DNA of 64,000 nt from Escherichia coli (GCA_025336685.1 GCA_025336685.1_4717.1), one strand, 5' to 3'; counted from the stretch's first letter, positions 1,704 through 60,377 are shown. Made by a program: numbers and translations. Notes: generated by a model not told the origin, from the letters alone.

Positions 1704-1780
1704 CGATGATCTCTCTTTGTTATTTCTACCGATAACGCGGCATAAGGGGACAATGATGTCCCCGTGTTAGAATCAACTAC

Positions 1781-2638: not shown

Positions 2639-2639
2639 G

Positions 2640-32056: not shown

Positions 32057-34279
32057 TCAGTTAGTCTGAACAGGCAGCTTGATGTTTTCGGTGTAGACCT
32101 TACGCAGGTTCACAACGTTAATCAGACCCAGCAGCGGGCAGTTGTTAACGAAGCGGCAGCGAGGCTGAACCATGGTTTCTTTAGAAACCTGACCGTTACG
32201 GGTAACCTGAGCAACAGATACCAGTTCCGGTACGTACAGGAACATACCGAAGGTCAGCGGATCCGGAGAACCCTGGATACCACGAGACAGGGTCACGAAG
32301 ATCTTATCACGCAGCAGAACGTTCGGGTTATCTACAACCACGAAGTTGAAGCTTACACCAACGGTACGGAAATCACCATCGGTCTGCAGGAACTGCGGGA
32401 TGTAGTTGTCAGTTGCTACCACGCAACGCGGTTTCTCATCAGCGTTGGAAGACAGCAGCTGCAGAGCTGGCTGATAACCAGACTCGGAGTACATGCGATA
32501 TGCCATCTCACGAATCACGTTCATGATCGCAGCGGACACTTCAGCACGACGTTCTGCAGTGGTGGTGCCCTGAACAGATTTCGCCAGGTCCAGATTGATT
32601 TCTTCGAACCACGGACGGATCAGGTAACGACCGAAACCTTCGATCTGGATGTCACCGAACTGACGGAAGCGAGAGGTCGCAACCGCTTTCAGTGCATCTT
32701 TGTAGCTGAACAGTTTCTCAACCATCAGGTTGTCGAAACGTGCGTTAGCAGCTTGGATCAGAACGTCCAGGTCAGCAGCGTTTTCTTCCCAATCCAGCGG
32801 ACGAGGAATGGAGAACGGAGCCAGCAGGCCGATTGCATAACGCTCTTGCTTCATGTTGAAGTCAAGGTGTTTACCACGTTCACGACGGTTGCTGTTGTTA
32901 CGGCGAATACGCAGTTCGTAACCAACCAGTTTGAAGCTCAGGTCGTCAGCCAGGTCTTTAAATTCTTGGCTCTTACGCGGCTGTTCGATGTTGTCCTGAT
33001 CAACCAGGCGATACAGTTCAGCGTTAGCACCGTTAACACGCAGACCTGCTTTCTCTACGTTGGAAGAACCGTAAACTTCGATAGCCAGCTGAGCAGCAGA
33101 TTTCGCATCGATGATGTCCTGCAGCGCTTCGGCTTTCGCACCTTTAACGTCAACGGTGTTCTCATCAACGAAGATGGAGTGGGTGTCGAACGCCAGGGTC
33201 ATTTTGCGGAAGTCGCCTTCCAGGGATTTCTGGAAACCGTTGGTAATCAGACCGGATACGTCGAACGGAACGTAAGAGGTCTTGCTGTGCTTGGCTGATT
33301 TGATTTCCACCAGGATTTTGGTCAGCGTGATCTGAGCATCCAGCGCATCGGTGTTGTCGCTGTAACCGTTAGCCAGAATGCTATCGTCTTCAGCGATACC
33401 GATCATGTCGATCAGTTTATCAACAGCCAGGTAAGACGTTTTGTAAGTTACGCCTTTAATCTCGATGTCGCGCGGAGCAACGATAGTTTTGTCAACGAAG
33501 TACTGCGCGTTAGCATCGTCGGCACGATAGATCGGATGCAGATCGGTCACGTCGTTGGACAGAACGTCGTTGTACATGAACGCATCCAGCAGCGGACGAC
33601 GTACCCAATCAGCCGGAGTACCGTCAGCGTTACGACGCAGGTGGTTGAACACCAGCGGACGACGGAAAGATACGTCGTAACCGATCTGGTTCGGAGCCAG
33701 AACGATGGTGTTGTACAGTTCGTTACCCATGCGGCTCAGACGAGAAGCCTTCACGTTGAACACAACGGAGTACGGCATCATGTCACGCAGTTCTTTCTGG
33801 TCGTAGGACAGCTGAACCAGTTCTTCAGATTCGCAACCGCAGGAATCAGCAGCCATCATGACGAAGTTAGAGCTGTCAACTTCACGGCCAGACGGAGTGG
33901 TGCTGATGTTCATGGAACGTGCTTGTTTAGCATATTCTACCGGGTTGCCATGAGCCAGCATGATCAGTGCTGCTGCACGAGCCTGCTGTGCGTTCATGGT
34001 GAACAGCTGTTCTTCAATACGCTGCTTCTCTTCCGGAGTGGTGGTTTCGAAGCCCAGCATGGACAGAACCGGTTCTTCTGCTTTACGGATGTCGCTGCTG
34101 AAGCTCTTAACATCCATATCGTTAACCAGTTTGTCCATGGATTTGAAATCAACCTTAGAAGCAGATTCCATAGACAGGAAGGTGTTCTCCAGACCTTTGT
34201 CTGCTGGTTTGCTACCATTAGCGGTCAGGAACTGGCGAGTGGCCGCGACCTGTTGGCTAAGAAGGGTTTTATCATTCAT
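32057..34279 (-). CDS. major virion structural protein (major capsid protein or tail sheath; capsid favoured)
   Basis: 740 aa, ATG with AAAGGA RBS; strongest codon bias in the window; size typical of jumbo-phage capsid or sheath proteins; identity not verifiable without a search. Confidence 0.8.
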   Translation of the reverse strand: MNDKTLLSQQVAATRQFLTANGSKPADKGLENTFLSMESASKVDFKSMDKLVNDMDVKSFSSDIRKAEEPVLSMLGFETTTPEEKQRIEEQLFTMNAQQARAAALIMLAHGNPVEYAKQARSMNISTTPSGREVDSSNFVMMAADSCGCESEELVQLSYDQKELRDMMPYSVVFNVKASRLSRMGNELYNTIVLAPNQIGYDVSFRRPLVFNHLRRNADGTPADWVRRPLLDAFMYNDVLSNDVTDLHPIYRADDANAQYFVDKTIVAPRDIEIKGVTYKTSYLAVDKLIDMIGIAEDDSILANGYSDNTDALDAQITLTKILVEIKSAKHSKTSYVPFDVSGLITNGFQKSLEGDFRKMTLAFDTHSIFVDENTVDVKGAKAEALQDIIDAKSAAQLAIEVYGSSNVEKAGLRVNGANAELYRLVDQDNIEQPRKSQEFKDLADDLSFKLVGYELRIRRNNSNRRERGKHLDFNMKQERYAIGLLAPFSIPRPLDWEENAADLDVLIQAANARFDNLMVEKLFSYKDALKAVATSRFRQFGDIQIEGFGRYLIRPWFEEINLDLAKSVQGTTTAERRAEVSAAIMNVIREMAYRMYSESGYQPALQLLSSNADEKPRCVVATDNYIPQFLQTDGDFRTVGVSFNFVVVDNPNVLLRDKIFVTLSRGIQGSPDPLTFGMFLYVPELVSVAQVTRNGQVSKETMVQPRCRFVNNCPLLGLINVVNLRKVYTENIKLPVQTN

Positions 34280-34428
34280 TGAAAGTATCCTTTACAGAAT
34301 TAACTTATATAAGTCGGTCGATAGACCATAGCGTACACGCGTGCATGCGCCACTATAGTATCAGTAAACACTTACCGTTATTGAGGTCGTGATACAACAC
34401 TAAAAATGCCGCATAACTTTTCCCTACG

Positions 34429-38214: not shown

Positions 38215-39117
38215 TTAGAAATTATTGCCGAACCGGTTATGGTTGTATGGTTGGTAGTGTCCGTAATTGCCTGGGAAGCCACCATACGTCGTAGGCTCCG
38301 GTTTAGGGACTTCCATAATCGGATTTTTAGAATTGATCGCCATCACGTAAAGGGTTACGGGTGATGCTGCGTGGCCCATTTCGACGACCACACGGCGGAT
38401 ATAATCAATGTATGCTGTTATTGCAGGCGTCAGTTTGTCTCCTTCGGTAGTTATAACGGTGCCGTCGGAAAGAATCTCACGAACCGCGCACCATTTACCA
38501 AGATGAACTCCTTGCTGCGGCTTTACTCCAGCAGAGATAGAGAGATAGGTATCGTACGTCGTTTGATGATACGGATGACTATAAATAGATTCCGCTTTGT
38601 TTTCGTCTTTCCCTAAGTACTCGCCTTGCTTAGGAGTATGAGTTGATATCATATCGGTATTTTCCACGAATGTCTTTCCTTCGAGTTGTTTGATTAATCG
38701 TTTAACCGATTCAGTTATGTTGTTGTGTCTAGGGATCAGCTTTAAGTAAACAGTCGGTAACTGGATTGTTGACCCATCACTACTGCGCGGATAAGATAAT
38801 TTGTAAAACTGTTCAAAAATCCGCCGTAACGCTTCGTTGTCTGAAGTTGCCAATTTAACATAGGAGCATCGTCCTTTAGCATTGGGATTGTAGAGAAGGA
38901 GAATAACGTCTTCGTCAGTACGTGTATCCTGAGGATGACAAGCGATGTAGTGAATGGGAATAGCCGTATCTTTTTCGTCTCCCGGTTTGATAGACAATGA
39001 AAAATCATGAGTTTCTTTTAACGTTCGTAACGTGCAGGATGCGTCGTCACTATTAAGTAAGAACACACCGAAACGCACGCTTTCGTATGCTGACGGGTCG
39101 CGTATTAATAAGGTCAT
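38215..39117 (-). CDS. hypothetical protein, paralogue family C
   Basis: ORF track 38215..39195 (TTG); ATG at M27 has AAGGAG RBS; shares HxTTYDxYL(S/T)I(S/T)(A/G)GV...G(K/E)W..(V/I)REI..DG block with 39203..39976. Confidence 0.65.
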   Translation of the reverse strand: MTLLIRDPSAYESVRFGVFLLNSDDASCTLRTLKETHDFSLSIKPGDEKDTAIPIHYIACHPQDTRTDEDVILLLYNPNAKGRCSYVKLATSDNEALRRIFEQFYKLSYPRSSDGSTIQLPTVYLKLIPRHNNITESVKRLIKQLEGKTFVENTDMISTHTPKQGEYLGKDENKAESIYSHPYHQTTYDTYLSISAGVKPQQGVHLGKWCAVREILSDGTVITTEGDKLTPAITAYIDYIRRVVVEMGHAASPVTLYVMAINSKNPIMEVPKPEPTTYGGFPGNYGHYQPYNHNRFGNNF

Positions 39118-39202
39118 GTTCGGCTCCTTGATTACGATAAGGATGATTGCGGTTTTGTGGTGCTGGTAGGGCCCTAAACAAAGGAACCCTACCAATATTA
39201 GG

Positions 39203-39976
39203 TTATTCAGGATCGGCGTAGAAATGGTGAGGATAGCCGGAGTACGATCCTGCGTTACCGGCTATGGATTCTTTCTGGGAATCGACGACGAGCGCATAGA
39301 ACTGTCGGGAATTTGTTAGCGTTGAGAAATAAGCGGAAAGGACTTTTTCATTCAACGCATCGCAAGGTAGACAGGTGCGACCGCAAAACGTAACGATACG
39401 GCCGTCAGGATAGATCTCACGAATCATTCTCCACTCACCGATATCCACTGGTGATGGTGCTGCTACACCACCTGTTATCGTTAAGTAACGATCGTACGTG
39501 GTATGGCATTCAGGATGAATATAGATCGGCTTGTTCGTTTCGACAGGTTCCGAAGTGTCTCGACGACTAAGGAGTTCAACGACTTCAAGATAAATCGTTG
39601 GTAGATCGCGGAGAATACCGGTGTTACGACGTTTCTTTGTGATTCGCGGACGAATCTCGTTAAGAGCGTATTCGAGCTTACGTTCAGCTTCGTACGCATC
39701 GAGTTTTATTAGGTGGCCCGGTTCATCGGAATGATCCTGAGTTATGTAAACGAAATACGTGTTGTCTTTTGCAGCGCGAAAGATTCGAGCGACCTTAAAT
39801 GTTTCTACAGTGCGATAACCAAGGCGCGATTGATTTTCCACAGGAGAAAATATCCAATGTCGTCCTTCGTCCGCCCCAACAATTTCGTTGAAACTATCCG
39901 TTTGTTCTGGGACCTGGTAGTCAGCCATTAATGTATCAAGAGCGTCATCGGCCAGTTTGGTGTAAATATCTGTCAT
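39203..39976 (-). CDS. hypothetical protein, paralogue family C
   Basis: 257 aa, ATG with GAGGA RBS. Confidence 0.65.
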   Translation of the reverse strand: MTDIYTKLADDALDTLMADYQVPEQTDSFNEIVGADEGRHWIFSPVENQSRLGYRTVETFKVARIFRAAKDNTYFVYITQDHSDEPGHLIKLDAYEAERKLEYALNEIRPRITKKRRNTGILRDLPTIYLEVVELLSRRDTSEPVETNKPIYIHPECHTTYDRYLTITGGVAAPSPVDIGEWRMIREIYPDGRIVTFCGRTCLPCDALNEKVLSAYFSTLTNSRQFYALVVDSQKESIAGNAGSYSGYPHHFYADPE

Positions 39977-40090
39977 GTTTGTATCCTCGGTTGTTAAGAG
40001 AAATTTACAATGATAACAGTAACCGTTGCTATCACCTAGGTAATATAGTCGCGAAATAAACTGGAGTAATACGCTTAAGACAGTATAGAA

Positions 40091-45343: not shown

Positions 45344-45431
45344 CGCAGATTCCTGTTTGAAAGATAAGATATCACATGATGGTCGACAGCATAAAGCCCA
45401 CCCCGAAGGGCGGGCTGTTTATGCGTACGGG

Positions 45432-51204: not shown

Positions 51205-51310
51205 TTGGGACTCCTACGTAGGGAAATCTTGGCGGGTGATCATGTCCGCCATTTACCTTCTGAACCGTTGATTCAGAAGTCAAAAGATAACCGGATACCG
51301 GCGTCATAAA

Positions 51311-51342
51311 CCTTCCTCCTTCCCTTACGGGTTGGAGGAAGG
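51311..51342 (-). terminator. conserved hairpin element, copy
   Basis: CCTTCCTCC-TT-CCC-TTAC-GGG-TT-GGAGGAAGG 3' of minus gene 51353..52642. Confidence 0.6.
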
Positions 51343-51352
51343 GATAGGGTGA

Positions 51353-52642
51353 TTATGCTTTTTCGGTCGCTGCGTTGAAGTATTTCGCAGCAGCAAATAC
51401 AGCATCCGCATACTGACGTACAGAGGCACGGAGGATCTTAGTTCCTAATACAGAGCTTAAACGAGCCATTTCTGTTACAGCTGTGATATAAGGACGTACG
51501 GTTTCACGATCAGCCTCAGGTAACTTGTCGAGCATTTCGCCCCACTTCGTTTTGATCTGCATTCCGTTGAGTTTAGCGTCTCGTCCTACAGAGCGCGCCA
51601 AACTTTCAACTTTATGCAAATACGTCGGTTCCACCATACGGAATGCCTTCAGATATGCAGTCAATGCGCTTTTCAGCTCATTCCCATCGTGGAAAATATT
51701 CGCATTTTCGATTTTATCTGTTACGGTGTCAACAACTTCAATATGAACATCCTTCACCAAAGCACATGCTTTAACGACATCCTTCTCTTTTTCTAGCGCA
51801 TCCAACCCTTTAACGACATATTGTTTTCCACCACTTTCTGGAAGTCTGAACGCCCTCAGTGCGGCTTTAGTGGCCTGAAGATACTCGTCTAGGACACGAT
51901 CAAGCGTTGTTAAATCAGTTAGGACATTAATGTCGTAGTTGATATCGCCGATCTTAGTAAATAAGAAATCTGATATCGTCGCACTTGCAGCCAGTTGTTC
52001 GATATGTTTGCTAACGGATGCCGCATCAACAGATTTTGCGTTCGGGAACATATTAACCATATTCCCGGTAGGCTTCTCTAGTTGTTTGATCTGACGTTCC
52101 CCTTTATTGACTTCGGATGCAATTTTGGTGATCTCAGCATAAGCCAGAACGAGATTCTTGAACAACATCTGGAACAGTTTGAACAGTTGCTCAGCAATAT
52201 TTGCAATGATTACCCAAACTGCGTATAACGCTTGTGCTGCGCGTTCTTTAAAGCCTTCCAGTACGATAGCCTGTCCTTCCACTAATTTATCATTAGCCTG
52301 GAACATGTCTTCATCAGACATCCCCAGGTTTGCTGCTGATGTCGAAGCGATCTGACGGATAAGTGCGACGTCGCTCACACGTGCTTCCGAGATCGTTGGT
52401 GCGATCATGTACGCTGTATCTTCCAGCGTTGCTGAGGTACGCACTGCAATTTCAGCCAGTTCGCTGGATTCATCGATTGTCTCGTCGGTATGTCGAATCA
52501 CCAACTCAACTTCACCCTCTTCAATTTCTGCGTTAGGATCGTGTTGCTCCGTCGGAATCGTCGCGAGAAGATCTTCGGCGCTGAGCAATGCGAGTTCGAA
52601 TGCGTTTTTATTGACGTTGTCAAAAAGAGAAATACGTGCCAT
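51353..52642 (-). CDS. head internal (inner-body-like) protein candidate, paralogue family D
   Basis: 429 aa, ATG with AAGGAA RBS; SDVALIRQIASTSAANLGMSDEDMF block; acidic N-terminus with repeated (A/L)xE. Confidence 0.75.
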   Translation of the reverse strand: MARISLFDNVNKNAFELALLSAEDLLATIPTEQHDPNAEIEEGEVELVIRHTDETIDESSELAEIAVRTSATLEDTAYMIAPTISEARVSDVALIRQIASTSAANLGMSDEDMFQANDKLVEGQAIVLEGFKERAAQALYAVWVIIANIAEQLFKLFQMLFKNLVLAYAEITKIASEVNKGERQIKQLEKPTGNMVNMFPNAKSVDAASVSKHIEQLAASATISDFLFTKIGDINYDINVLTDLTTLDRVLDEYLQATKAALRAFRLPESGGKQYVVKGLDALEKEKDVVKACALVKDVHIEVVDTVTDKIENANIFHDGNELKSALTAYLKAFRMVEPTYLHKVESLARSVGRDAKLNGMQIKTKWGEMLDKLPEADRETVRPYITAVTEMARLSSVLGTKILRASVRQYADAVFAAAKYFNAATEKA

Positions 52643-52651
52643 GTTAGTTCC

Positions 52652-53968
52652 TTAACCTTTGGTATAGGCTTTAACGAGAGTGTTGATAAATGAAGTCAGT
52701 GCGCGAAGATACTGGTACGCGAACTGGTTTTCAATACGGTTCTCTTTACCGCAAAGCAGAATCGCGCGCTTAACGAGCTTAGGATAGATCTCGATGTACG
52801 GTTGGTAGCTTGCATCAAAATTCTGCTCGTTGAAGCGTTTCATGGTGATTTCCTGGATACGCTCCATGGTGCGAATTTTATTGCGAGAGAATATCTCAGA
52901 GAAAGCACGTCCGCGTTTTGTTACCATCAACAGATCTTTCGCGAACGTCAGTTGTCGAACGCTACGCAAATCGTCAGGTGTTGGTAGGACGTACGTTTCT
53001 GGATCGTTATCCCATTCAACATCTTCAACGACAATATCCAAGTCGAGGTAACGTTTAACAGCATCGATGATATTGTCTTTTGACGCATCGAATTCTTTCA
53101 AGAAGACTGCGCCGTTGATGTAGCGGATACGTTTTCCGGAAACCGTTGGGGTGATAACGTCAGCACCTTCCACAGAACCACGATTTTCCAGCGTCGATTT
53201 GACAGCGTTCAAGAAAGTCAGATAATCAACGGGAAGTTTTTCAACCTTATCTAAATGGAAGTCGATGATGTTTAATCCTAACCCATCAATAACTGAATAA
53301 CCGTCCGATTTAAGGAACATCTGATTGAAGGTATCGATGTTGCTTTTCAGCGTGTCTACACCACCAACGTTGTTACGGTTAGGGAAAAGTGTTCGCCACT
53401 CTGCTTTAAACGCGACCTCTTTATTTTCCGTGTATTTGCCTTTGGGCATTTGTTCGAGGGCTGCAATAGCTTTCTGAAAATTGCGTGTCTCGTCATAAAC
53501 AAGATGGGTAAGCTTCTCGAAGGCTGCTGCCAGAGTCAGGGCAATATCAACGATGATATCCCAGATCTTTTTCATGGCTTTTACAACGGTGTCTTTAAAC
53601 CCTTCAACAACCAAAGCTTCTCCAATCTCAACACGGTCGGTTGGAGTCAGCAATGCTTCGGAGGGCAAGCCCAAAGCAATCGATGCGGATTCTTGAATGT
53701 TACGAACCAACGCAACATCACTGTAGTTAGCCGATTCGATAGTCGGGGCAACATCAAAACTGATTTCCCGCAGTGCTTCAACAGCAGGGAAAGCACGATC
53801 AAGTGCATCTTCATGTTCGTCGATTGTCGCCAAACGTAACTCAACACCATCAGCATCGATGACTTCAGCGGTAGGCTCCACAGCAAGCGCTTCAGCAACA
53901 ATAGGATCTTTTTCAAACGCTTCGAGGCTGATATCGCCTTGGGTCGCAAATAGCGGTATGTGTACCAT
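52652..53968 (-). CDS. head internal (inner-body-like) protein candidate, paralogue family D
   Basis: ORF track 52652..53992 (TTG); ATG at M9 has GGAGA RBS; SDVALVRNIQESASIALGLPSEALL block. Confidence 0.7.
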   Translation of the reverse strand: MVHIPLFATQGDISLEAFEKDPIVAEALAVEPTAEVIDADGVELRLATIDEHEDALDRAFPAVEALREISFDVAPTIESANYSDVALVRNIQESASIALGLPSEALLTPTDRVEIGEALVVEGFKDTVVKAMKKIWDIIVDIALTLAAAFEKLTHLVYDETRNFQKAIAALEQMPKGKYTENKEVAFKAEWRTLFPNRNNVGGVDTLKSNIDTFNQMFLKSDGYSVIDGLGLNIIDFHLDKVEKLPVDYLTFLNAVKSTLENRGSVEGADVITPTVSGKRIRYINGAVFLKEFDASKDNIIDAVKRYLDLDIVVEDVEWDNDPETYVLPTPDDLRSVRQLTFAKDLLMVTKRGRAFSEIFSRNKIRTMERIQEITMKRFNEQNFDASYQPYIEIYPKLVKRAILLCGKENRIENQFAYQYLRALTSFINTLVKAYTKG

Positions 53969-54016
53969 GTGTTGTCTCCAGTAATGATTCAAAAGATAAA
54001 CCTGAGCGGCATAGAA

Positions 54017-54048
54017 CCCTCTCCCAACCCGTAAGGGAAGGGAGAGGG
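54017..54048 (-). terminator. conserved hairpin element, copy
   Basis: CCCTCTCCC-AA-CCC-GTAA-GGG-AA-GGGAGAGGG 3' of minus gene 54071..55396. Confidence 0.6.
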
Positions 54049-54070
54049 AATATGTCAGTTTATTAACTGA

Positions 54071-55396
54071 TTACTGCTGTGCTGCGTCAGCCGGTTTCTC
54101 GGCCGCCTGGCCGCCGTACTCTTTCAGCATTTTAGCAGCGCCATCCAGGACAGCGTTACCTGCCTGAACACCGTATTTCATCAGACCAGTCTGTGGGTTC
54201 ACGTAGCAGGAACGTGCGTCTTTCAGTGCAGACAGTACAGCTTGAACACGCTGTTTTTCCTGAGCGGAAACTTCGCCTTTCTTAGACAGATCAGCTTCCA
54301 TTGCGTCGCCGAATTTAACAGCGTCTTTGAAGCCCTGGGATTTCTTACCGATGTTGCCTTTCAGCGCCAGCAGTTTGTCAGCCAGTACTTCAACACCGCT
54401 AACCGCAGCGGCCAGCTGATTCAGGGACAGGACGGTAGCTTCAACTTCTTTTGCTTCACCGGAGCGTTCCCAGGTTACTTTACCATCGTTGGCTTTGAAA
54501 CCCCAGCCCGCAGGACCAGCAACGTCAGCAATCGCCGGAGCGTTCAGTTTATCGGCGTACTCGGTGTGAGATTTAGCAACAACAGTGTTGACGAATTTAT
54601 CAGCACGATCGTCAGCAGCCTTCATTGCTTTCTCGAAGGTGTCGGCGATTTTGGTCGCACCGGTAACCAGATCGTCGCCACCGATGTAACCTGAAATGCC
54701 ACTACCCAGGGTAACTTTGGCATTTTTAGCAGCGCCTTTACGCTTGGCGATCATTTCTTTCAGTTTAGCAGCGCGTGCTTTCAGTTTGGTCGCGCCGTCG
54801 AAGATGCGATCCATGAACTTCACGAAGGTTTCCCAGGAAGTTTTCAGGAAGTTCTTGATGGTTGCCCACAGTTTCTGCCACCATTTTTGTTCTTCCAGGA
54901 AGATCATGTTGGTTGCATCGTAACGGGAAGCAGAACCACCGAAGCTTTCGAAGGACGGCATGGTTTCCGGCAGTTTGAAACCGATAGTACCACACAGGCG
55001 TTTCAGGTTACGCATGTGTTCCTGAGCGGTTTGTGCAGACATACCACCGTCTTTCAGGTAGCTTTCGGTTGCAACAACGGTTTCCGTCAGTTCATCCATG
55101 GCTTCATCCATGGCTTCTGCGGTTTCGTCGTCTTTTGCAATTTCGATAACAACAGCGTCAACCTGCTCGATATCGCCACGAACTTCGATAGCCAGTTCGG
55201 TTTCAGCTGCAGTATCTTCAGCGATTTCAGCGCGTTCGGTCAGTTCAGCTACAACGGTTTCATCTGCTGCTGCTGCGGCATCAGCTGCCGGTTCTGCTTC
55301 AACGGTTGCCGCTGCATCCGGATCGATCTCAGCAGCCAGTTGAACCAGCTGTGCGTTAGATGGATTTGCGACAAGACGATCAAAAATAGAAGGCAT
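54071..55396 (-). CDS. abundant Ala/Glu-rich head protein candidate (family D-like; scaffold or internal protein)
   Basis: 441 aa, ATG with AAAGGAA RBS; strong codon bias; N-terminal 100 aa acidic with many AxE motifs. Confidence 0.75.
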   Translation of the reverse strand: MPSIFDRLVANPSNAQLVQLAAEIDPDAAATVEAEPAADAAAAADETVVAELTERAEIAEDTAAETELAIEVRGDIEQVDAVVIEIAKDDETAEAMDEAMDELTETVVATESYLKDGGMSAQTAQEHMRNLKRLCGTIGFKLPETMPSFESFGGSASRYDATNMIFLEEQKWWQKLWATIKNFLKTSWETFVKFMDRIFDGATKLKARAAKLKEMIAKRKGAAKNAKVTLGSGISGYIGGDDLVTGATKIADTFEKAMKAADDRADKFVNTVVAKSHTEYADKLNAPAIADVAGPAGWGFKANDGKVTWERSGEAKEVEATVLSLNQLAAAVSGVEVLADKLLALKGNIGKKSQGFKDAVKFGDAMEADLSKKGEVSAQEKQRVQAVLSALKDARSCYVNPQTGLMKYGVQAGNAVLDGAAKMLKEYGGQAAEKPADAAQQ

Positions 55397-55420
55397 AATT
55401 TGTTTCCTTTACAATAAATT

Positions 55421-55436
55421 GCACATTAGCTAATGT
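55421..55436. promoter_or_regulatory. perfect 16-bp palindrome upstream of 54071..55396
   Basis: CACATTAGCTAATGTG about 25 nt upstream of the start codon, adjacent to a second imperfect hairpin (GCTTAAGTG...CACTTAAAAGC). Confidence 0.35.
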
Positions 55437-55460
55437 GGCTTAAGTGAGCCATTAGCCCAC

Positions 55461-55991
55461 TTAAAAGCCCTTAAAACCCGGTGCCATAGGTTGCCCAAAC
55501 ACCGCATTCAAAGTACATATGATGTCCTGGATGCCATTGTCCCAATGGAGCCAAGTACGCACCATCTCTTCGTCTGACAACGTGATATAACTCATAAGTT
55601 TACCGCTGCTTTCCAGACGTTGGTGCGAACTTAGCGACTGACGATCTGACCAGTTATCAATCAGTTGACCAGCGATCTGAACGTTCGTGTCTCGTCTACC
55701 TGTGTGAATGAACCGCAGTGTATCACGGATAAACTCCAGACTGGTGAAGTTCAGATTTGGGTTATGGCTGTTCATTTCCACCCAGTCGGTAATGGGGTAC
55801 ATCAAACGATAAAGGGTAGAAAGAACCTGACGCTCGTATTTCCAGTCATCGAGAGGAGTACCGTCGACCAGACGCTGATACAAACTAACAACGTCGCGAT
55901 CGTAGTTCTCCTGACGTTTTACGCCGTTAACCGGAAATCCGAAGAATCCGGTACCGTATAACGTTAAAGGGACGTCACGAAGTGCACTCAT
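55461..55991 (-). CDS. hypothetical protein (about 176 aa)
   Basis: ORF track 55461..56123; ATG at M45 forms ATGA overlap with the stop of the upstream ORF; sequence before it overlaps 55988..56464 out of frame. Confidence 0.6.
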   Translation of the reverse strand: MSALRDVPLTLYGTGFFGFPVNGVKRQENYDRDVVSLYQRLVDGTPLDDWKYERQVLSTLYRLMYPITDWVEMNSHNPNLNFTSLEFIRDTLRFIHTGRRDTNVQIAGQLIDNWSDRQSLSSHQRLESSGKLMSYITLSDEEMVRTWLHWDNGIQDIICTLNAVFGQPMAPGFKGF

Positions 55992-56464
55992 ACAGCCGCC
56001 TCTTCTTTTCGTTTGATGTCGTAACGAAGTTTCTTCAGTCGCTCTTCGTGATATTCGATCTGCTGCTGGATTTTTGGATCGTTGCCCGCATTCTGTTGCT
56101 TTTGCTTCAGTGACAAAATCCAATACTCCAACGCTTGGGCTTCTTCTTTGGCTGCTTGTAACGACGCTTCTTCACGTTCGCTGCGCCAGATGCGATAACG
56201 GTAAATAAGCGTGTTGGTCATTTGAGTGTCGGACCATGAACCCATGCGCATCGGGTCAGTATTACCCGCGTTGTACAACCCATTACCAACACCGTCTTCA
56301 TCAGAAACCACAACATCCGGGATTTTATCCAACCCAGCAAGGATCTGTTGTTTCTGTCCACACAGCACCTCGGTGGCAATGGCGAAACCGTACATGTTGG
56401 CGGTCAGGTAAGCAATCTCGTTTTTGGTGAAGAACTCACCAAGTGCTTTATCACCACCTGGCAT
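55988..56464 (-). CDS. hypothetical protein, 3' segment of a possibly interrupted gene
   Basis: 158 aa from the first ATG; the same frame stays open and strongly codon-optimised for 66 more codons upstream (to in-frame TAG at about 56663) with no canonical start. Confidence 0.5.
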   Translation of the reverse strand: MPGGDKALGEFFTKNEIAYLTANMYGFAIATEVLCGQKQQILAGLDKIPDVVVSDEDGVGNGLYNAGNTDPMRMGSWSDTQMTNTLIYRYRIWRSEREEASLQAAKEEAQALEYWILSLKQKQQNAGNDPKIQQQIEYHEERLKKLRYDIKRKEEAAV

Positions 56465-56662
56465 GCTTTCGCAGATGACTGTCGCACGAAGCAGCGTACG
56501 AGCGTAGCTAACGTAGAAGCCCAGGGACTCAACAAGACGTACCAGAGCGGCTTCTTTGAAACTCAGACCGTCGGCAGCAACATCGATTTCCAGGTTTTTG
56601 TTAACACGTTTAACAATTTCTGGAATCAGATCAACAGCATTACGTAGCGCTATGAACGTTTT

Positions 56663-57132
56663 CTACCCAGCTTCCAGAGCGAACGCGGGTTAAACGCTGA
56701 TGCAGATCCTTGTCAGCGAGTTTCCATAAGGCGCTTTCCCTTTTGGAGAAGCGGAGCGGATGTCTCGTAGGCGGAATCGCGGTGTTGTTGATTTCGTCAC
56801 GGATCGATTCAAGTGCGTCAGCAACACCGGCAGGTTTAAAAGCGGCTTCAAACTGCGAATGAATTCTTTAAAATCAATTGCCATGAGTGAGCAATTCCGC
56901 GCTATTTCGAACAGGTTACGTGTGTTAACGAATCTGTGGGACGTTTCCGGTACGGAGGCCTGGAGGATCGTCAGAAGATCAACCCGAGGTTGACGAACTG
57001 TTGATTTTTCCAGCTGTTTGAAGCTTACTGTGGTCCCTTGATCCAAGCTGTGGAAATAGAAGGTCACCATCTCTTCAGCTTGTCGATGATGATCAACTGC
57101 ATTGCAAGGGCTTCAGCCATGACTTTCACGTG
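56663..57132 (-). other. 470-bp interval interrupting coding sequence (frame-disrupted gene, intervening sequence, or recoding region)
   Basis: Lies between the TAA stop of 57133..58020 and the in-frame TAG preceding the optimised 55988..56662 frame; contains a 126-aa ORF (56690..57070) with poor codons and a second open frame entered by -1 shift at T_TTA_AAC (about 56834..56840). Confidence 0.4.
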
Positions 57133-58020
57133 TTATAGCCGACAAACGACGTCCGATTCATGCCTGATGGCTTCCTGGTTAGCCTTAGAGATGATATAGG
57201 TGGAGGCGATTGCTCCAGAAGAAGGGATCTTTGTGCTCGCTGCAGCTTTTGCGGCATTGATGCGCGCAGCATTAACAGCCTTGCGGATACCCTCTTTATC
57301 CATACGTGAGATTCGTTTGTGTTCACGAACCAGGTCACTAAGCAGGATCATGTCGCTCCAGAAAGACAGCTCACCCGCCATCATGCGATGCCAACGTGCT
57401 CGCCAGGTGTTCTGTGGGCCGCCGATCGCTAAAATCGACGCAAGCACTTCCGCTGGTGAACTTGCAATACGCATGCTGATGTTCAATGGCATTTTCATCG
57501 TTGCCTGACCATCGGTCAGCGTCACGGTTAAGAACTTGCCGGTGACCGCGTTTGCATCTTTGTTCAGCAATTCGATCGCTGCGTCGCTGGCCCCAACATC
57601 GAGGCTATTTTTTTGTTTCCCCAGCAGGTTGAATCCTTTGTCATCAAGGAAAACAAGGCTTTTGCTATCCGCACTTTCCAGTGCTAATTTAACAGCCTTA
57701 TCCATCATGTTAGCGTTACGGTTTGGATTCACACGACCCAGCGTTTTATCGACACTGATATTACCCACCTGCATGATGGTGTTCAACGCCAGTAAATAGA
57801 ACCCGGTATACATATTTTCAGCGGTGCGCATGCAGTTGCCTAACGCATTGCGTGCGTCGCTATAATACAACTCACGTTCAAAGATCAACGGCGCGATAAC
57901 GCGTGAAGGTTGTGAGAGTTCAACCAGCGAACCTGGCTGGATAAGTTTATTAACTTCGTAGACTTTAGCGATACCGGACGCAACAACGTTAACAGCGTCG
58001 GCAATTTCTGATGCTACCAT
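57133..58020 (-). CDS. hypothetical protein (295 aa), possible 5' part of an interrupted gene
   Basis: ATG with AAGGA RBS; good codon usage. Confidence 0.7.
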   Translation of the reverse strand: MVASEIADAVNVVASGIAKVYEVNKLIQPGSLVELSQPSRVIAPLIFERELYYSDARNALGNCMRTAENMYTGFYLLALNTIMQVGNISVDKTLGRVNPNRNANMMDKAVKLALESADSKSLVFLDDKGFNLLGKQKNSLDVGASDAAIELLNKDANAVTGKFLTVTLTDGQATMKMPLNISMRIASSPAEVLASILAIGGPQNTWRARWHRMMAGELSFWSDMILLSDLVREHKRISRMDKEGIRKAVNAARINAAKAAASTKIPSSGAIASTYIISKANQEAIRHESDVVCRL

Positions 58021-58054
58021 ATTGAAATCCTTATTTACAAATAAAGGAAAGAAA

Positions 58055-58264
58055 ATGTCTAATTACTACGACCAAGCTATTCAAACCATTCAGGAAGATA
58101 ATGCGTCGTTAACACCCGAAGCTGTGGAGGCAGCGGGCAATGCGGTGTTATTCACTGATTCAGATTGGGCAATGGCGCGGAAGAATATTCGTACCAGTGT
58201 CGGTCAAGGGACATACGGACAGTATCGCCAGACGGTATCGGAATGTGTCACCTATTCCGGGTAA
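58055..58264 (+). CDS. small ORF (about 69 aa), possible N-terminal part of a frameshift fusion with 58140..59258
   Basis: ORF track 58022..58264; ATG at M12 has AAAGGAAAG RBS; good codon usage; ends GGG TAA. Confidence 0.5.
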   Translation: MSNYYDQAIQTIQEDNASLTPEAVEAAGNAVLFTDSDWAMARKNIRTSVGQGTYGQYRQTVSECVTYSG

Positions 58265-59258
58265 CAGTCCGATTCCGATTAACCGCGATCATGCCGGTAT
58301 TACCTTCTTCACACGACCTAATTTACATCTTACCGACGCGAACTTAAAACGAGATCGACGTTTGTGGTCGTTACGTACGGATAACCCTAACAGTATTCAG
58401 GCTGTTGTCCGTGACTACTTGGACCCTGTGGGTGCCAGAAAGCGGAACCATCGAGGACGTGCCATCGTCGATGAGCGCAATCCATTCATAAGTATACTGA
58501 CGGACAACCTGACGGATATCAGCGGTTTCAATGACATGGAAATGCAGGTCTATCAGGGTAAACCGGGATTACGCCAAGAAACCGTTGTGATGGCTGACGG
58601 TTCAGTGGATATGTTTCAACCCTATAACCTGAACGCGACGTTCAAGAACATCATGGGTAACCCCATCATGTTCCTTCATTATATTTGGTTGATTTACATC
58701 GCTGGTGTGCATAATGGTGAACTGACGCCAAGCCCTCAGGCCATCATCGACAATGAAATGGATTACTGGACAAGATGTTATCGTATCATCCTGGATCCGA
58801 CTGGGATGTATGTTCGTTATATCTTCGCACCGACCGCGATGTTTCCTGTCGGGTTACCGACTGGTAATATGGCTAACTACAGCATCGATAAACCCTTCAC
58901 GCAAGATAACGAACGTATCACTATTCCATACCAAGCGGTTGGTAACAACGCATTCGATGAAATTCTGAAGGATGAATTCAATCGACTTGTCCTGATGTTC
59001 TATTACGGTGAGAACGATACCCGTACGTTCCTTGAAGATGAGGAGTTGGTACCTATTTCACCCTACGAGCGTCGAATCATGTCGTATCGTGTCGATATGT
59101 ATCCATTTATTCATCCGTTGACCTCAGAGCTTCTTTGGTTCGTACCCGCTGATGCTTACAACGAATTCTATCTGGATCTTGAGCCATCGGCGTTACCACC
59201 GGATACGTTCAGTCGCGATCTTGTCCGTACCACCATTCCGCAAAATTACGAGGGATAA
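58140..59258 (+). CDS. hypothetical protein (start ambiguous)
   Basis: 372-aa ORF; ATG at 58140 has GGAGG RBS, but codons 1-35 are rare-codon-rich and overlap 58055..58264; clearly coding only from about 58265 onward. Confidence 0.65.
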   Translation: MRCYSLIQIGQWRGRIFVPVSVKGHTDSIARRYRNVSPIPGNSPIPINRDHAGITFFTRPNLHLTDANLKRDRRLWSLRTDNPNSIQAVVRDYLDPVGARKRNHRGRAIVDERNPFISILTDNLTDISGFNDMEMQVYQGKPGLRQETVVMADGSVDMFQPYNLNATFKNIMGNPIMFLHYIWLIYIAGVHNGELTPSPQAIIDNEMDYWTRCYRIILDPTGMYVRYIFAPTAMFPVGLPTGNMANYSIDKPFTQDNERITIPYQAVGNNAFDEILKDEFNRLVLMFYYGENDTRTFLEDEELVPISPYERRIMSYRVDMYPFIHPLTSELLWFVPADAYNEFYLDLEPSALPPDTFSRDLVRTTIPQNYEG

Positions 59259-59261
59259 TAA

Positions 59262-60377
59262 ATGAGCGTAACCAACAAAGATCTTGCTGAACAGCTCAAT
59301 CGCTATATGCTTTCACCCATTGAAATGCAGGCTGTTGCAAGCGATATGATCCGTTTGGCTTCCGATGGTGAGTTAACCCTGGTTGACCCCAGCTGTCCGT
59401 TTGTTTATCTGCTGGAGGTTGCAACGGCGACGGCTGCGAACCAGAACGCGCGGGATGAATCCCGTGTTCGCGAACTGTATCCGAAACTTGCAACCAACTG
59501 GAGCCAGCTCTATCGTTGGATGTATGACGAGTCGTACGTCGGACGTTTCGCAATGCCGGGTAAAACGGAAATCATTTATTCGTTAGGGTATCAGGAAATC
59601 CTCGATCGTGCTGTAGAGATTCCAAACACCGCCGCATCCGATGATTTAAGCCGTTCTTACAGCCGTAAGTTAGTGATACCACGTACGACGGTGTTTACGG
59701 TAGCCGGAATGGATTTCGGGCTGCATTATCCCATCGAAATCCAAGTGCAGGCGCACGACCAGATACGCGTTGTTTATAACACTGATAACATCAGCCCGCT
59801 GCAAACCTTGGAGAGTAACCAAGTTGAGTATGGTGTTGTTCGTGTAAAAGCGGGTAAAGTGTTGGTGATGCGTATCCCACTGTTCCAGTTTAAAACGCTG
59901 GTAAAAGATGTGCCGTTTAACAGCGTTCACGGGATGAACAGCAGCATTACCTTCGAAGATCAGTTTTACCATTGTCGTGCGTACATGTCGTCGGATAACG
60001 ATACCTGGACGGAGATAGCGACAACCCACAGCCAGCAGATCTACGATCCGTTAACACCGACCATCGCGTTACAAGTAGAAGGGAACAAACTTAACTGGCG
60101 TGTTCCTGAAATTTATTTGTCTCAAGGTACGATGGATAAAAGCACCATTCGACTCGAGGTGTTGACGACGAAAGGGAAAATCAGCGTCGACCCGTCTGAT
60201 TACGACGTGACTGATTGGAAAGATAATTACATCGATCTGTCACCAAAAGCCGAACAGAAATACAGTGCGCCGCTAAGTGCGTTCAACATTAAAGGGATTT
60301 ATAGTGAAGGGGCGTTGTCGGGTGGACGATCTGCGTTAACATTCGAGGAACAACGTGAACGCGTTATGGCGAAGTGA
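59262..60377 (+). CDS. hypothetical protein (371 aa)
   Basis: ATG with GAGGGA RBS. Confidence 0.75.
   Translation: MSVTNKDLAEQLNRYMLSPIEMQAVASDMIRLASDGELTLVDPSCPFVYLLEVATATAANQNARDESRVRELYPKLATNWSQLYRWMYDESYVGRFAMPGKTEIIYSLGYQEILDRAVEIPNTAASDDLSRSYSRKLVIPRTTVFTVAGMDFGLHYPIEIQVQAHDQIRVVYNTDNISPLQTLESNQVEYGVVRVKAGKVLVMRIPLFQFKTLVKDVPFNSVHGMNSSITFEDQFYHCRAYMSSDNDTWTEIATTHSQQIYDPLTPTIALQVEGNKLNWRVPEIYLSQGTMDKSTIRLEVLTTKGKISVDPSDYDVTDWKDNYIDLSPKAEQKYSAPLSAFNIKGIYSEGALSGGRSALTFEEQRERVMAK

What the first reader, a model, noticed from the sequence alone, without database searches (positions are those of the whole stretch)
55397..55460. Perfect 16-bp palindrome and nested hairpin directly upstream of a highly expressed head-protein gene
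CACATTAGCTAATGTG (about 55421..55436) lies about 25 nt upstream of the start codon of 54071..55396, next to a second inverted repeat (GCTTAAGTG...CACTTAAAAGC). A 12-bp palindrome ACTTATATAAGT lies about 20 nt upstream of the major structural gene (about 34291..34304). These are candidate operator or late-promoter elements, or translational-repressor binding sites.
Basis: seen in the sequence. Interest (0 to 1): 0.4.

Follow-up and report, generated by a model that had tools for sequence, protein, structure and literature searches.

The report
Conserved palindrome in jumbo-phage gene leaders
A 14-base palindrome next to an RNA hairpin sits just before the gene for the most abundant protein of a Goslar-like giant phage, and its conservation in distant relatives, and before the nuclear-shell gene of Erwinia phages, marks it as a real but undescribed expression-control element.

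Summary
Both palindromes and the hairpin are real; the coordinates are off by 1 and about 10 nt. The window is a Goslar-like nucleus-forming jumbo phage. The 441-aa gene is the gp58 homologue, an internal or injected head protein at about 2150 copies per virion.

Counts alone are near chance, and the 16-mer is single-copy in the genome. Conservation says otherwise:
- The 14-nt core ACATTAGCTAATGT is intact in relatives whose flanking protein is only 70% and 52% identical, while the rest of the 64-65-nt spacer has diverged.
- The identical 14-mer lies in the chimallin (nuclear shell) gene leader of Erwinia RAY-like phages, downstream of an early-type promoter motif.
- The capsid-gene palindrome ACTTATATAAGT is equally conserved.

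The neighbouring hairpin (-16.8 kcal/mol) overlaps the gp59 stop codon. Its apex varies, with pair-preserving and G·U changes, which points to an RNA structure.

One layout recurs before gp58, the capsid gene and both chimallin genes: variable hairpin, 0-1 nt, invariant AT-rich palindrome, 13-30 nt, ribosome-binding site.

Best reading (about 0.45): a leader-RNA module for mRNA stability or translation control, with the dyad as a factor-binding site. Main rival (about 0.3): a DNA operator for a dimeric protein. It is not a canonical terminator, not an early promoter and not a repeated operator.

The parts
55422..55437 (-). Perfect 16-bp palindrome CACATTAGCTAATGTG. The deeply conserved core is the 14-mer ACATTAGCTAATGT at 55423-55436.
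   Evidence: Searches give the sequence and position. The 14-mer is identical in L037 and L038, whose flanking protein is 70% and 52% identical, and in RAY-like chimallin leaders. In 21 Goslar-like genomes the second base (55436) is A in 14 and G in 7.
55437..55469 (-). Hairpin 2 (hairpin A of the module): a 14-bp RNA stem with a UU bulge and a 3-nt loop. It shares C55437 with the palindrome.
   Evidence: The fold is -16.8 kcal/mol with z = -5. On 9 distinct haplotypes, 98.8% of cells are paired, 2 pairs change on both sides, and several changes are one-sided A-U/G-C to G·U.
55445..55459 (-). Hypervariable apex of hairpin 2.
   Evidence: This stretch holds 12 of the 14 variable spacer positions seen across 21 genomes.
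55461..55463 (-). Stop codon (TAA) of the gp59 homologue, lying inside the 5' arm of hairpin 2.
55405..55409 (-). Shine-Dalgarno AAGGA of the gp58 homologue, 12 nt after the 16-bp palindrome. The start codon is at 55394-55396.
   Evidence: AAGGAA(C) is the only other spacer element kept in L037 and L038.
54071..55396 (-). gp58 homologue: PF12699 internal or injected head protein, the dominant virion protein.
55461..55991 (-). gp59 homologue: PF25618 (PhiKZ_gp91), a low-copy capsid vertex-binding-complex protein.
55464..55619 (-). Last ~156 nt of the gp59 homologue, where synonymous sites are almost frozen.
   Evidence: Third-codon positions vary at 4 of 52 sites here, against 60 of 124 further upstream in the same gene, across 21 genomes. 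The first 60 nt of gp58 show 0 of 20.
54005..54048 (-). Canonical chimallivirus intrinsic terminator (GC hairpin plus TTCTATGCCGCT) just after the gp58 stop codon.
   Evidence: The motif matches the phiKZ terminator consensus quoted.
34303..34314 (-). 12-bp palindrome ACTTATATAAGT in the major capsid gene leader, 23 nt before the ATG.
   Evidence: It is invariant, with its flanking TAA, in lineages whose MCP is 72% and 68% identical and in 12 Goslar-like genomes.
34316..34327 (-). Small hairpin GGUCUAUCGACC that abuts the capsid-gene palindrome.
   Evidence: The structure is kept while the loop and inner pair differ: U-A in the window, U·G in L163 and L164.
34331..34362 (-). Two further conserved blocks upstream of the capsid gene: GATACTATAGTG (34351-34362) and GCACGCGTGTAC (34333-34344). 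Each contains an 8-bp palindrome.
32057..34279 (-). Major capsid protein gene (PF25620).

Best explanation
The 64-nt gp59/gp58 spacer is a clade-specific expression cassette that acts mainly in the mRNA leader of the dominant internal head protein.

**Layout on the sense strand**
1. A stable clamp hairpin begins in the last codons of gp59. Only its base and overall shape are constrained.
2. Directly abutting it is an invariant A/U-rich dyad, ACAUUAGCUAAUGU. It can form a marginal hairpin of 5-6 bp with a 4-nt loop, stacked on the clamp.
3. A 13-19-nt A/U-rich linker follows.
4. Then come the SD (AAGGA) and the AUG.

**Proposed working (inferred)**
- The clamp hairpin insulates the leader and protects it from decay.
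- The dyad is the docking site of a sequence-specific trans-acting factor, from the phage or the host.
- Together they set the stability and/or translation of the mRNA, so that gp58 is made in thousands of copies while gp59, in the same gene string, is made in tens.

**Shown**
- The elements and their order.
- RNA-type evolution of the hairpin.
- Deep sequence conservation of the dyad.
- Recurrence of the same layout in other top-expressed genes.
- A location downstream of an early-type promoter motif in RAY-like phages.

**Not shown**
- That the dyad is read as RNA.
- That a factor binds it.
- The direction of the effect.
For: **The dyad is under selection**
- The 14-mer is intact in L037 and L038, while the rest of the spacer is unalignable. 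It is the only collinear exact match of 12 nt or more in the whole L038 locus.

**The same 14-mer sits in a leader elsewhere**
- It lies in the chimallin leader of four Agricanvirus-type lineages.
- There it starts 25 nt after the motif CTATATTAC, which matches the Goslar intergenic motif I read as the early promoter, and about 20 nt before AAAGGAA-ATG.
- If that motif is the promoter, the dyad lies inside the transcribed leader.
- Chimallin would be an early gene and gp58 and MCP late genes, so the element does not follow promoter class.

**An upstream hairpin abuts the dyad (0-1 nt) in independent contexts**
- gp58 in the window and in L037. In L038 only the centroid fold shows this layout; the minimum-energy fold does not.
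- The MCP leader in three lineages, with U-A to U·G change and different loops.
- RAY chimallin, with the hairpin GUAUAGA-GUAA-UCUAUGC.
- Goslar chimallin, with GAAUGAGC...GCUGAUUC followed by AAUGACGUCAUU.
- Shuffling the upstream 30 nt gives such an abutting hairpin in only 5-16% of trials per leader.

**Hairpin 2 evolves like an RNA helix on the sense strand**
- 98.8% of cells are paired.
- GUG/CAC changes to GCA/UGC.
- G·U intermediates occur, which would be A·C on the other strand.

**Variation at the edge of the dyads is R opposite a fixed U**
- gp58: A/G at 55436.
- MCP: G in the window and L163, A in L164.

**Context**
- The 64-65-nt spacer exists only in the Goslar clade. More distant chimalliviruses have 11-27 nt between the gp91 homologue and the internal-protein gene.
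- Goslar is the phage with one dominant PF12699 protein, about 2150 copies, where PhiKZ has several at about 100-200 each.
- No canonical terminator separates gp59 from gp58. One follows gp58 directly.
Against: - No transcription start site or RNA end is mapped for Goslar, and I found no such data.
- The RAY 'early promoter' is a motif match, not a mapped promoter. Calling the Goslar motif the early promoter is also my inference.
- As an RNA hairpin the dyad is weak: -3.1 kcal/mol. The analogous AAUGACGUCAUU does not fold in the minimum-energy structure.
- In L038 the minimum-energy fold does not form the dyad hairpin.
- The stems of the dyad show no covariation. They are invariant in sequence, and the centre is itself palindromic. 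That is what a dimeric DNA-binding protein needs and what an RNA hairpin does not. This point is weakened because the elements were found by looking for palindromes.
- Two more conserved blocks upstream of MCP contain 8-bp palindromes too short to be RNA hairpins. DNA-level dyad sites therefore exist nearby.
- gp67's palindrome has no convincing abutting hairpin.
- The dyads of different genes share only TTA..TAA, so one common factor is not obvious.
Confidence: 0.45

Rival explanations
1. DNA-level operator. The palindrome is bound as duplex DNA by a dimeric, sequence-specific phage protein. That protein gates transcription through the leader, either as a roadblock or repressor or as a recruiter. 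Hairpin 2 is a separate RNA feature at the end of the gp59 cistron.
For: - The dyad symmetry is perfect, centre included, with the full sequence invariant and no covariation.
- Other conserved blocks upstream of MCP contain 8-bp palindromes that cannot be RNA hairpins.
- AATGACGTCATT occurs twice in Goslar intergenic DNA: in the chimallin leader and between gp159 and gp160. Repeated operators look like this.
- The RNA hairpin form is thermodynamically marginal.
Against: - It does not explain why an RNA-type hairpin, with G·U pairs, abuts the dyad by 0-1 nt in several independent leaders.
- Each dyad is single-copy and differs from gene to gene, so several dedicated regulators would be needed.
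- In RAY the site lies about 25-38 nt downstream of the promoter-like motif of what would be an immediate-early gene, transcribed before any new phage protein exists.
- I found no report of a chimallivirus late or early DNA-binding regulator.
- The perfect symmetry is partly an artefact of how the elements were found.
Confidence: 0.3
2. Terminator plus promoter. Hairpin 2 ends or stabilises the gp61-gp59 transcript, and the palindrome is the core of a dedicated strong promoter for gp58.
For: - gp58 is far more abundant than gp59 in the virion, and a terminator follows gp58 directly. A separate gp58 transcription unit is therefore attractive.
- Synonymous sites around the spacer are frozen, as expected for regulatory DNA.
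- In 201phi2-1 many mapped 3' ends lack a canonical terminator.
Against: - Hairpin 2 lacks both the GC-rich stem and the TTATKYYGT tail of the clade's terminators. The terminator scan does not call it.
- The spacer has no TATG, the only known phiKZ-type late-promoter motif.
- Spacing from the palindrome to the SD/ATG and to the TnTG motif varies by up to 10 nt between lineages.
- The same 14-mer lies downstream of a different, early-type promoter motif in RAY-like phages.
Confidence: 0.12
3. Chance palindromes in AT-rich intergenic DNA, with no function of their own.
For: Counts of perfect palindromes are close to the shuffle expectation, and the 12-mer class is common. At least one other leader palindrome, TGCTTAAGCA before gp39, is not conserved.
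Against: - The 14-mer is identical in lineages where the rest of the spacer is randomised.
- It recurs in another chimallivirus genus, in the same leader layout.
- The MCP 12-mer is the longest invariant block of its region.
Confidence: 0.02
4. A genome-level cis site, such as a replication origin, packaging site or partition site, that merely happens to lie in this spacer.
For: It is single-copy and conserved.
Against: - There is no GC- or AT-skew turning point near it.
- In RAY-like phages the same sequence is at a non-syntenic place, the chimallin leader.
- Other genes carry analogous but different dyads in the same position relative to their SD.
Confidence: 0.03

Closest known systems
Leader of phage T7 gene 10 (major capsid protein): 5' stem-loop plus A/U-rich translational enhancer plus SD (from my own knowledge)
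   Same: It is the short leader of the most highly expressed structural gene. A clamp hairpin is followed by an A/U-rich stretch and a good SD, and the leader serves mRNA stability and high translation.
   Different: The T7 leader has no invariant palindrome. Its enhancer is thought to act through rRNA or S1 contacts. No 5' end is mapped here, so whether hairpin 2 is 5'-terminal is unknown.
Small protein-binding RNA hairpins of phages, such as lambda/P22 nut boxB and the MS2/PP7 coat-protein operators (from my own knowledge)
   Same: These are marginally stable hairpins of 5-7 bp whose sequence, not just pairing, is conserved because a protein reads it. They lie in leaders or intercistronic RNA.
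   Different: Their loops are not self-complementary. The MS2-type operators overlap the SD or AUG, whereas this dyad ends 13-19 nt before the SD. No binding protein is known here.
Dyad-symmetric DNA operators of dimeric repressors, such as lac and the 434/P22 operators (from my own knowledge)
   Same: They are perfect 12-18-bp dyads with conserved sequence, close to the start of the regulated gene.
   Different: Such operators are usually repeated or lie next to the regulator gene. Here each dyad is single-copy, differs between genes, and is always abutted by an RNA-type hairpin. In RAY-like phages it lies downstream of the promoter-like motif.
Conserved intrinsic terminator of phiKZ-like phages (BCCYCCCC...GGGRRGG plus TTATKYYGT; Putzeys et al. 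2024, PMC10914365)
   Same: It is an intercistronic hairpin in the same genomes, and a canonical copy sits directly after gp58.
   Different: Hairpin 2 is A/U-richer, lacks the TTATKYYGT tail, overlaps a stop codon, and has a free-varying apex.
5'-UTR stabiliser hairpins of E. coli mRNAs, such as ompA (from my own knowledge)
   Same: A stem-loop upstream of an A/U-rich ribosome-binding region protects a very abundant mRNA.
   Different: That function needs the hairpin within a few nt of the 5' end, which is untested here. It also does not need a conserved dyad.

Membership tests
phiKZ-type conserved intrinsic terminator | GC-rich stem of the form CCYCCCC...GGGRRGG | tested here: not met
   The hairpin 2 stem is GGCUU/AAGUGGGCU, and its apex sequence varies freely. 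Compare the canonical copy at 54017-54048 and the motif quoted.
phiKZ-type conserved intrinsic terminator | Tail TTATKYYGT directly after the stem | tested here: not met
   The stem is followed by ACATTAGCTAATGTG. TTATGCYGT occurs in the window only at 31921, 42125 and 45386.
Generic intrinsic terminator | G+C-rich hairpin followed by a run of T | tested here: not met
   The terminator scan of 50000-60000 reports nothing at 55437-55469 on the minus strand.
Goslar early-type promoter motif (inferred vRNAP early promoter) | TTTCACGRCTAYATTACYT, with an invariant C in ATTAC | tested here: not met
   All 12 intergenic copies have ATTAC. The palindrome has ATTAG in every lineage, lacks the upstream TTTCACG at the right spacing, and its flanks are not conserved in L037 or L038. 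The temporal class of the motif is inferred from jumbo-phage literature, not shown for Goslar.
phiKZ-type late (nvRNAP) promoter | TATG overlapping the start site (T-3 A T G+1) | tested here: inconclusive
   The spacer contains no TATG. Candidates lie inside gp59 at 55519-55516, kept in all three lineages but within the conserved peptide DIICTL, and at 55488-55485, which is not kept. No start sites are mapped.
Sigma-70 promoter | -35 and -10 hexamers with 16-18 nt spacing | tested here: not met
   The scan of 50000-60000 finds no site in 55397-55470. From the literature, these phages do not use host RNAP.
Dyad-symmetric DNA operator of a dimeric regulator | Perfect or near-perfect dyad with conserved sequence | tested here: met
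Dyad-symmetric DNA operator of a dimeric regulator | Several related sites in the genome, or an adjacent regulator gene | tested here: not met
   The site is single-copy, and near-matches are at shuffle level. The neighbouring genes encode virion proteins.
Dyad-symmetric DNA operator of a dimeric regulator | A cognate DNA-binding protein | not testable with these tools
   This needs EMSA or pull-down. No such chimallivirus factor turned up in the literature search.
Translational operator hairpin (MS2, T4 RegA or gp43 type) | The hairpin or site overlaps or directly abuts the SD or AUG | tested here: not met
   The dyad ends 12-19 nt before the SD in the three gp58 lineages.
Curated RNA families (Rfam 15) | A match to any covariance model | tested here: not met
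   The whole window gives no hit at gathering score. At E<=10 only one chance-level hit, on the opposite strand, falls in 55100-55800, and none falls in 34200-34500.
Structured leader RNA with a conserved helix | Pairing kept through compensatory and wobble changes | tested here: met
   This holds for hairpin 2: 98.8% of cells paired, 2 pairs with double changes, and slid controls paired at only 19-44%. The dyad itself is invariant, so it gives no evidence either way.

The most novel reading that the evidence does not exclude
Nucleus-forming jumbo phages may mark the leaders of their highest-output mRNAs with a two-part 'licence plate'. These mRNAs include chimallin, the major capsid protein and the dominant injected internal protein.
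- The first part is a free-sequence clamp hairpin.
- The second is a gene-specific, perfectly self-complementary A/U-rich dyad.

The dyad would be read either by a conserved phage factor or through RNA-RNA homodimerisation of the dyads. Because they are fully self-complementary, two copies of an abundant mRNA can form a 12-16-bp duplex.

This would control export from the phage nucleus, stability or translation. It would be a post-transcriptional control layer independent of the two phage RNA polymerases.
Probability: 0.2. Interest if true: 0.8.

Novelty: new variant of a known kind. Interest (0 to 1): 0.6.

Why it matters
How chimalliviruses set expression levels is largely unknown. The only late-promoter motif described is TATG, which reviews call insufficient for specificity. 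No regulator is known, and mRNAs must leave a protein-walled nucleus before translation.

This finding supplies a discrete, deeply conserved 14-nt element that can be mutated. It sits in front of the gene for the most abundant virion protein, and the same sequence sits in front of the nuclear-shell gene in another genus. That gives a direct experimental handle, through reporters, Cas13-selected phage mutants and pull-downs, on post-transcriptional or operator-type control in these phages. It could also serve as a compact high-expression leader for phage engineering.

Tried and rejected
1. **Genome-wide motif.** k-mer enrichment in 123 Goslar upstream regions returns only the SD, the early-type motif CTATATTAC and the terminator tail TTTATGCYG. 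No palindrome family appears.
2. **Second copies.** The 16-mer at up to 3 mismatches in the window, and the 14-mer at up to 4 mismatches in Goslar, give none above shuffle level.
3. **Exact 14-mer scan of IMG/VR.** It returned 120 or more hits, essentially all chance matches in AT-rich coding DNA (peptide TLANV), with no homology to gp58 or gp59. The structured pattern scan of GTDB genomes also gave only chance hits.
4. **'TATG with a hairpin starting at +1' as a late-promoter rule.** The idea came from MCP, gp23, gp30, gp88 and gp214. Genome-wide it is not enriched: 21.5% of intergenic TATG against 23% of coding TATG. Rejected.
5. **GC hairpin plus TTTATGCYG as terminator-promoter cassettes.** This is simply the known phiKZ terminator motif.
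6. **Resemblance of the palindrome to the early-type motif (ACATTA.CT).** It fails on the invariant C and on the flanks.
7. **A shared extended SD, TGTAAAGG, in gp29, MCP and gp58.** It occurs 3 times in the SD position out of 8 genomic copies. This is post hoc and is not kept in L037 or L038.
8. **An upstream mini-ORF starting at the ATG inside the right arm.** It has 5-6 codons in all three lineages but no SD, and that length is expected in AT-rich sequence. Not pursued.
9. **Origin of replication.** There is no skew change.
10. **Overlapping ORF to explain the frozen synonymous sites.** None is found.
11. **Expression data.** The supplementary tables of the Goslar RNA-seq paper and the phiKZ start-site tables are not held.
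12. **Is leader-palindrome conservation general?** It is not. TGCTTAAGCA before gp39 is lost in the 72% lineage.

Full report
**What the window is**

The region around the finding is 96.8% identical to Escherichia phage vB_EcoM_Goslar. The window aligns to Goslar 13.5-73.7 kb at about 94%. Goslar is a 237-kb nucleus-forming jumbo phage (Chimalliviridae). All genes near the finding are on the minus strand.
- The 441-aa ORF 54071..55396 is the homologue of Goslar gp58. It belongs to PF12699, the phiKZ-like internal head proteins.
- The ORF ending at 55461 is the gp59 homologue (PF25618, PhiKZ_gp91).
- The 740-aa ORF 32057..34279 is the major capsid protein, gp41.

A 2026 cryo-EM and mass-spectrometry preprint on Goslar gives the copy numbers. 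It puts gp58 at about 2150 copies per virion, more than the 1615 capsid subunits. It places gp59 in the complex on the inner face of the non-portal capsid vertices, which I take to mean low copy.

**Checking the observation**

- CACATTAGCTAATGTG is a perfect palindrome at 55422-55437.
- On the coding strand it is directly preceded by GGCUUUUAAGUGGGCUAAUGGCUCACUUAAGCC (55469->55437). This folds into a 14-bp hairpin of -16.8 kcal/mol, and 0 of 200 shuffles fold as well.
- The gp59 stop codon (55463-55461) lies in the 5' arm of this hairpin.
- As RNA the palindrome alone is a weak hairpin, -3.1 kcal/mol.
- The second palindrome, ACTTATATAAGT, is at 34303-34314, 23 nt before the capsid-gene ATG.

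Numerically these palindromes are unremarkable. The window has 3 of 16 bp or more against 1.1 expected, and 24 of 12 bp or more against 16.7. The 16-mer has no second copy in the window, and its 14-mer core has none in the whole Goslar genome. No palindromic motif emerges from 123 Goslar upstream regions. On those grounds alone the finding would be ordinary.

**Population-level comparison**

I collected 21 Goslar-like genomes from IMG/VR, metagenomes, and Salmonella and E. coli isolate assemblies. They are 87-97% identical over 6.5 kb. In the spacer, variation is confined to three places:
- the apex of the hairpin (55445-55459);
- one base of the palindrome (55436, A in 14 genomes and G in 7);
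- the base just after it (55421, one genome).

The hairpin apex has eight haplotypes, yet 98.8% of pair cells stay paired. GUG/CAC is replaced by GCA/UGC in two genomes. Several changes are A-U or G-C to G·U. G·U pairs read as A·C on the other strand, so this is an RNA helix on the sense strand. Its base is fixed and its top is free. The A/G change in the palindrome likewise keeps RNA pairing (A-U to G·U) but breaks the DNA symmetry. That is a single event and therefore weak evidence.

An unexpected by-product concerns synonymous sites. Third-codon positions vary at 60 of 124 sites in most of gp59, but at only 4 of 52 in its last 156 nt and 0 of 20 in the first 60 nt of gp58. No overlapping ORF explains this. 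Either nucleotide-level function extends well beyond the spacer, or the segment has swept through the population. I could not decide between these.

**Deep comparison, the decisive step**

A protein search with gp59 found two distant lineages, L037 at 70% identity and L038 at 52%. Both keep the synteny gp91-like gene, 65-nt spacer, PF12699 gene.
- In both, the 14-mer ACATTAGCTAATGT is intact, while the rest of the spacer is unalignable apart from the SD AAGGAA(C).
- In L038 it is the only collinear exact match of 12 nt or more in the whole 3.3-kb locus, coding sequence included.
- The outermost pair of the 16-mer is C..G in Goslar, A..T in L038 and A..A in L037.
- The distance to the ATG is 26, 33 and 31 nt.

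More distant chimalliviruses (PhiEaH1, Moabite, KpLz-2_45, LucasX) have only 11-27 nt between the two genes. The long spacer with its dyad is therefore specific to the Goslar clade, in which a single PF12699 protein dominates the virion.

The capsid-gene palindrome behaves the same way. In lineages whose MCP is 72% and 68% identical, ACTTATATAAGTTAA is invariant and is the longest conserved block. By contrast, a palindrome before gp39 is not conserved, so the effect is not general.

**The same 14-mer in another genus**

A structured pattern scan of IMG/VR used the dyad core, 11-24 nt, AAGGAA, 4-12 nt, ATG. It recovered the Goslar-likes and three other jumbo contigs. One of these is Erwinia phage RAY (Agricanvirus, 271 kb).
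- There the identical 14-mer lies in the leader of the chimallin (nuclear shell) gene (PF25677).
- It starts 25 nt after CTATATTAC and about 20 nt before AAAGGAA-ATG.
- CTATATTAC matches the conserved Goslar intergenic motif TTTCACGRCTAYATTACYT. I read that motif as the early (virion RNA polymerase) promoter, following the literature on jumbo phages. It also stands before Goslar's own chimallin gene.
- The 14-mer is conserved in four Agricanvirus-type lineages.
- It is followed by a second palindrome, ACTTGCAAGT, whose arms equal those of the Goslar capsid-gene palindrome.

By my rough estimate, a 14-mer recurring by chance in the intergenic DNA of a related phage group has a probability of order 10^-3. 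That it does so in the same leader position makes chance unlikely.

Two consequences follow, both resting on the motif-based promoter assignment:
- In RAY the dyad would lie inside the transcribed leader.
- The element is not tied to a promoter class, because chimallin would be an early gene and gp58 and MCP are late ones.

**A recurring layout**

In every one of these leaders a hairpin ends 0-1 nt before the dyad:
- hairpin 2 for gp58, with weaker hairpins of unrelated sequence in L037 and, in the centroid fold only, in L038;
- GGUC-loop-GRCC before the capsid-gene dyad, kept through U-A to U·G change and different loops;
- GUAUAGA-GUAA-UCUAUGC in RAY;
- GAAUGAGC...GCUGAUUC before the palindrome AATGACGTCATT in Goslar's own chimallin leader.

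Shuffling the 30 nt upstream produces such an abutting hairpin in 5-16% of trials per leader. Several independent occurrences are therefore unlikely to be accidental. The layout is: variable hairpin, 0-1 nt, invariant A/T-rich perfect palindrome, 13-30 nt of A/U-rich linker, SD.

**What it is not**

- Hairpin 2 is not the clade's canonical terminator. That element is a GC-rich stem plus TTATKYYGT, known from phiKZ. A textbook copy sits right after the gp58 stop at 54005-54048.
- Neither the terminator scan nor the sigma-70 scan calls anything in the spacer.
- The spacer has no TATG, the phiKZ late-promoter motif.
- No Rfam family matches.
- There is no skew change that would suggest an origin.

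**Most likely mechanism**

I favour, at about 0.45, a leader-RNA module. The clamp hairpin insulates and protects the leader. The dyad, marginally folded and stacked on the clamp, is read by a sequence-specific factor that sets the stability or translation of the mRNA. This would explain:
- the RNA-type evolution of the hairpins and their exact abutment to the dyad;
- the independence from promoter class;
- the position inside the RAY leader;
- the link with very high protein output.

The main rival, at about 0.3, is a duplex-DNA operator for a dimeric protein. It explains the perfect symmetry and sequence invariance better. It also fits the two extra conserved 8-bp palindromes upstream of the capsid gene (ACTATAGT and CACGCGTG), which are too short to be RNA hairpins. 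It does not explain the abutting RNA hairpins. It would also need several gene-specific regulators, none of which is known. A terminator-plus-promoter reading (about 0.12), a genome-level site (about 0.03) and pure chance (about 0.02) fit less well.

No Goslar start-site data could be found. The step 'the dyad acts as RNA' is therefore inference, not demonstration.

**Novelty**

I found no description of these dyads, or of the hairpin-plus-dyad leader layout, in the literature searched. In kind it resembles known leader hairpins and operators, with the T7 gene 10 leader, boxB or MS2-type hairpins and lac-type operators as the nearest. I therefore class it as a new variant of a known kind. It would gain interest if the self-complementary dyads prove to be a dedicated post-transcriptional mark of top-expressed chimallivirus mRNAs.

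Noticed in passing
window 55464-55619 and 55337-55396: Synonymous sites are almost frozen in the last ~156 nt of the gp59 homologue (4 of 52 third positions variable, against 60 of 124 upstream) and in the first 60 nt of gp58 (0 of 20), across 21 genomes. The boundary near 55620 is sharp. No overlapping ORF explains it. Selection on nucleic acid or a recombinational sweep are both possible.
   Followed up: partly
L003 29480-29497 (Goslar 79480-79497, outside the window): An 18-bp perfect palindrome, TAAATTTACGTAAATTTA, lies 11 nt before the gp67 start codon. In all of Goslar only three perfect 12-mers have the form NN-TTA-NN-TAA-NN (MCP, gp58, gp67). All three are intergenic and 14-27 nt before the ATG of a gene annotated as, or similar to, a virion protein gene. 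The gp67 one is conserved in a lineage with 78% protein identity (L167).
   Followed up: partly
L005 22929-22940 and L004 42859-42870 (Goslar 172929 and 142859): The 12-bp palindrome AATGACGTCATT occurs twice in Goslar, both times intergenic. One copy is in the chimallin leader, 30 nt before the ATG and abutted by an upstream hairpin. The other lies between the divergent genes gp159 and gp160.
   Followed up: partly
window 34331-34362: Upstream of the capsid gene, two more blocks conserved in distant lineages each hold an 8-bp palindrome (ACTATAGT, CACGCGTG). In the window the second lies in a 20-nt run of strictly alternating purine and pyrimidine, GCGCATGCACGCGTGTACGC.
   Followed up: no
window 3798-3807, 31880-31889, 40038-40047 (minus strand): There are three copies of the early-type promoter core TAYATTACYT, against 0.45 expected. 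The full motif, TTTCACGRCTAYATTACYTnnGTGA, has about 12 intergenic copies in Goslar, including one before chimallin. It contains its own inverted repeat, TTCAC...GTGAA.
   Followed up: partly
window 54005-54048; also 31921-31929, 42125-42133, 45386-45394: GC-rich hairpins followed by TT(C)TATGCYGT match the conserved phiKZ terminator motif. The stem sequence CCTCCTCCTTCCCTT..CGGGTTGGAGGAGG is itself repeated in the window and conserved in the 72% lineage L165.
   Followed up: partly
window 38244-39972: This ~1.7-kb segment is absent from Goslar. It carries two ORFs, 38215..39195 and 39203..39976, and an early-type promoter motif stands just upstream at 40038-40047. It looks like an inserted, self-contained gene module. 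Window 1-2676 and 9480-11531 also do not align to Goslar.
   Followed up: no
window 34814-34845 and 57079-57157: Relative to Goslar, the homologues of gp42 and gp61 change reading frame, and the gp60 homologue is only 79% identical with many gaps. These are either real pseudogenes or variants, or indel errors in the assembly.
   Followed up: partly
loci L028, L031, L034, L019, L025, L026: Near-complete Goslar-like genomes (235-244 kb contigs) occur in NCBI isolate assemblies. Source names on homologous proteins point to Salmonella enterica and Shigella flexneri. The exact gp59 protein is indexed in 499 blocks of the collection. The phage group is common and may persist in cultures.
   Followed up: no
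L168 (SRR1970178 contig) against L003: The L168 contig (102 kb) carries a gp67 allele only 49% identical in protein, behind an upstream region almost identical to Goslar's. The homology search lists many such 48-49% alleles, some on contigs of 236-248 kb. This suggests sharp mosaicism that starts at the start codon.
   Followed up: no
window 55411-55404, 34295-34288; Goslar 26358: The string TGTAAAGG forms the SD context of three structural genes: gp29, MCP and gp58. That is 3 of its 8 copies in the genome. It is not kept in the distant gp58 lineages.
   Followed up: partly
L225 (RAY) about 865-874; L106, L081, L226: In Agricanvirus chimallin leaders the 14-mer is followed after 2-3 nt by a second perfect palindrome, ACTTGCAAGT. 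Its arms (ACTT/AAGT) equal those of the Goslar capsid-gene palindrome.
   Followed up: no
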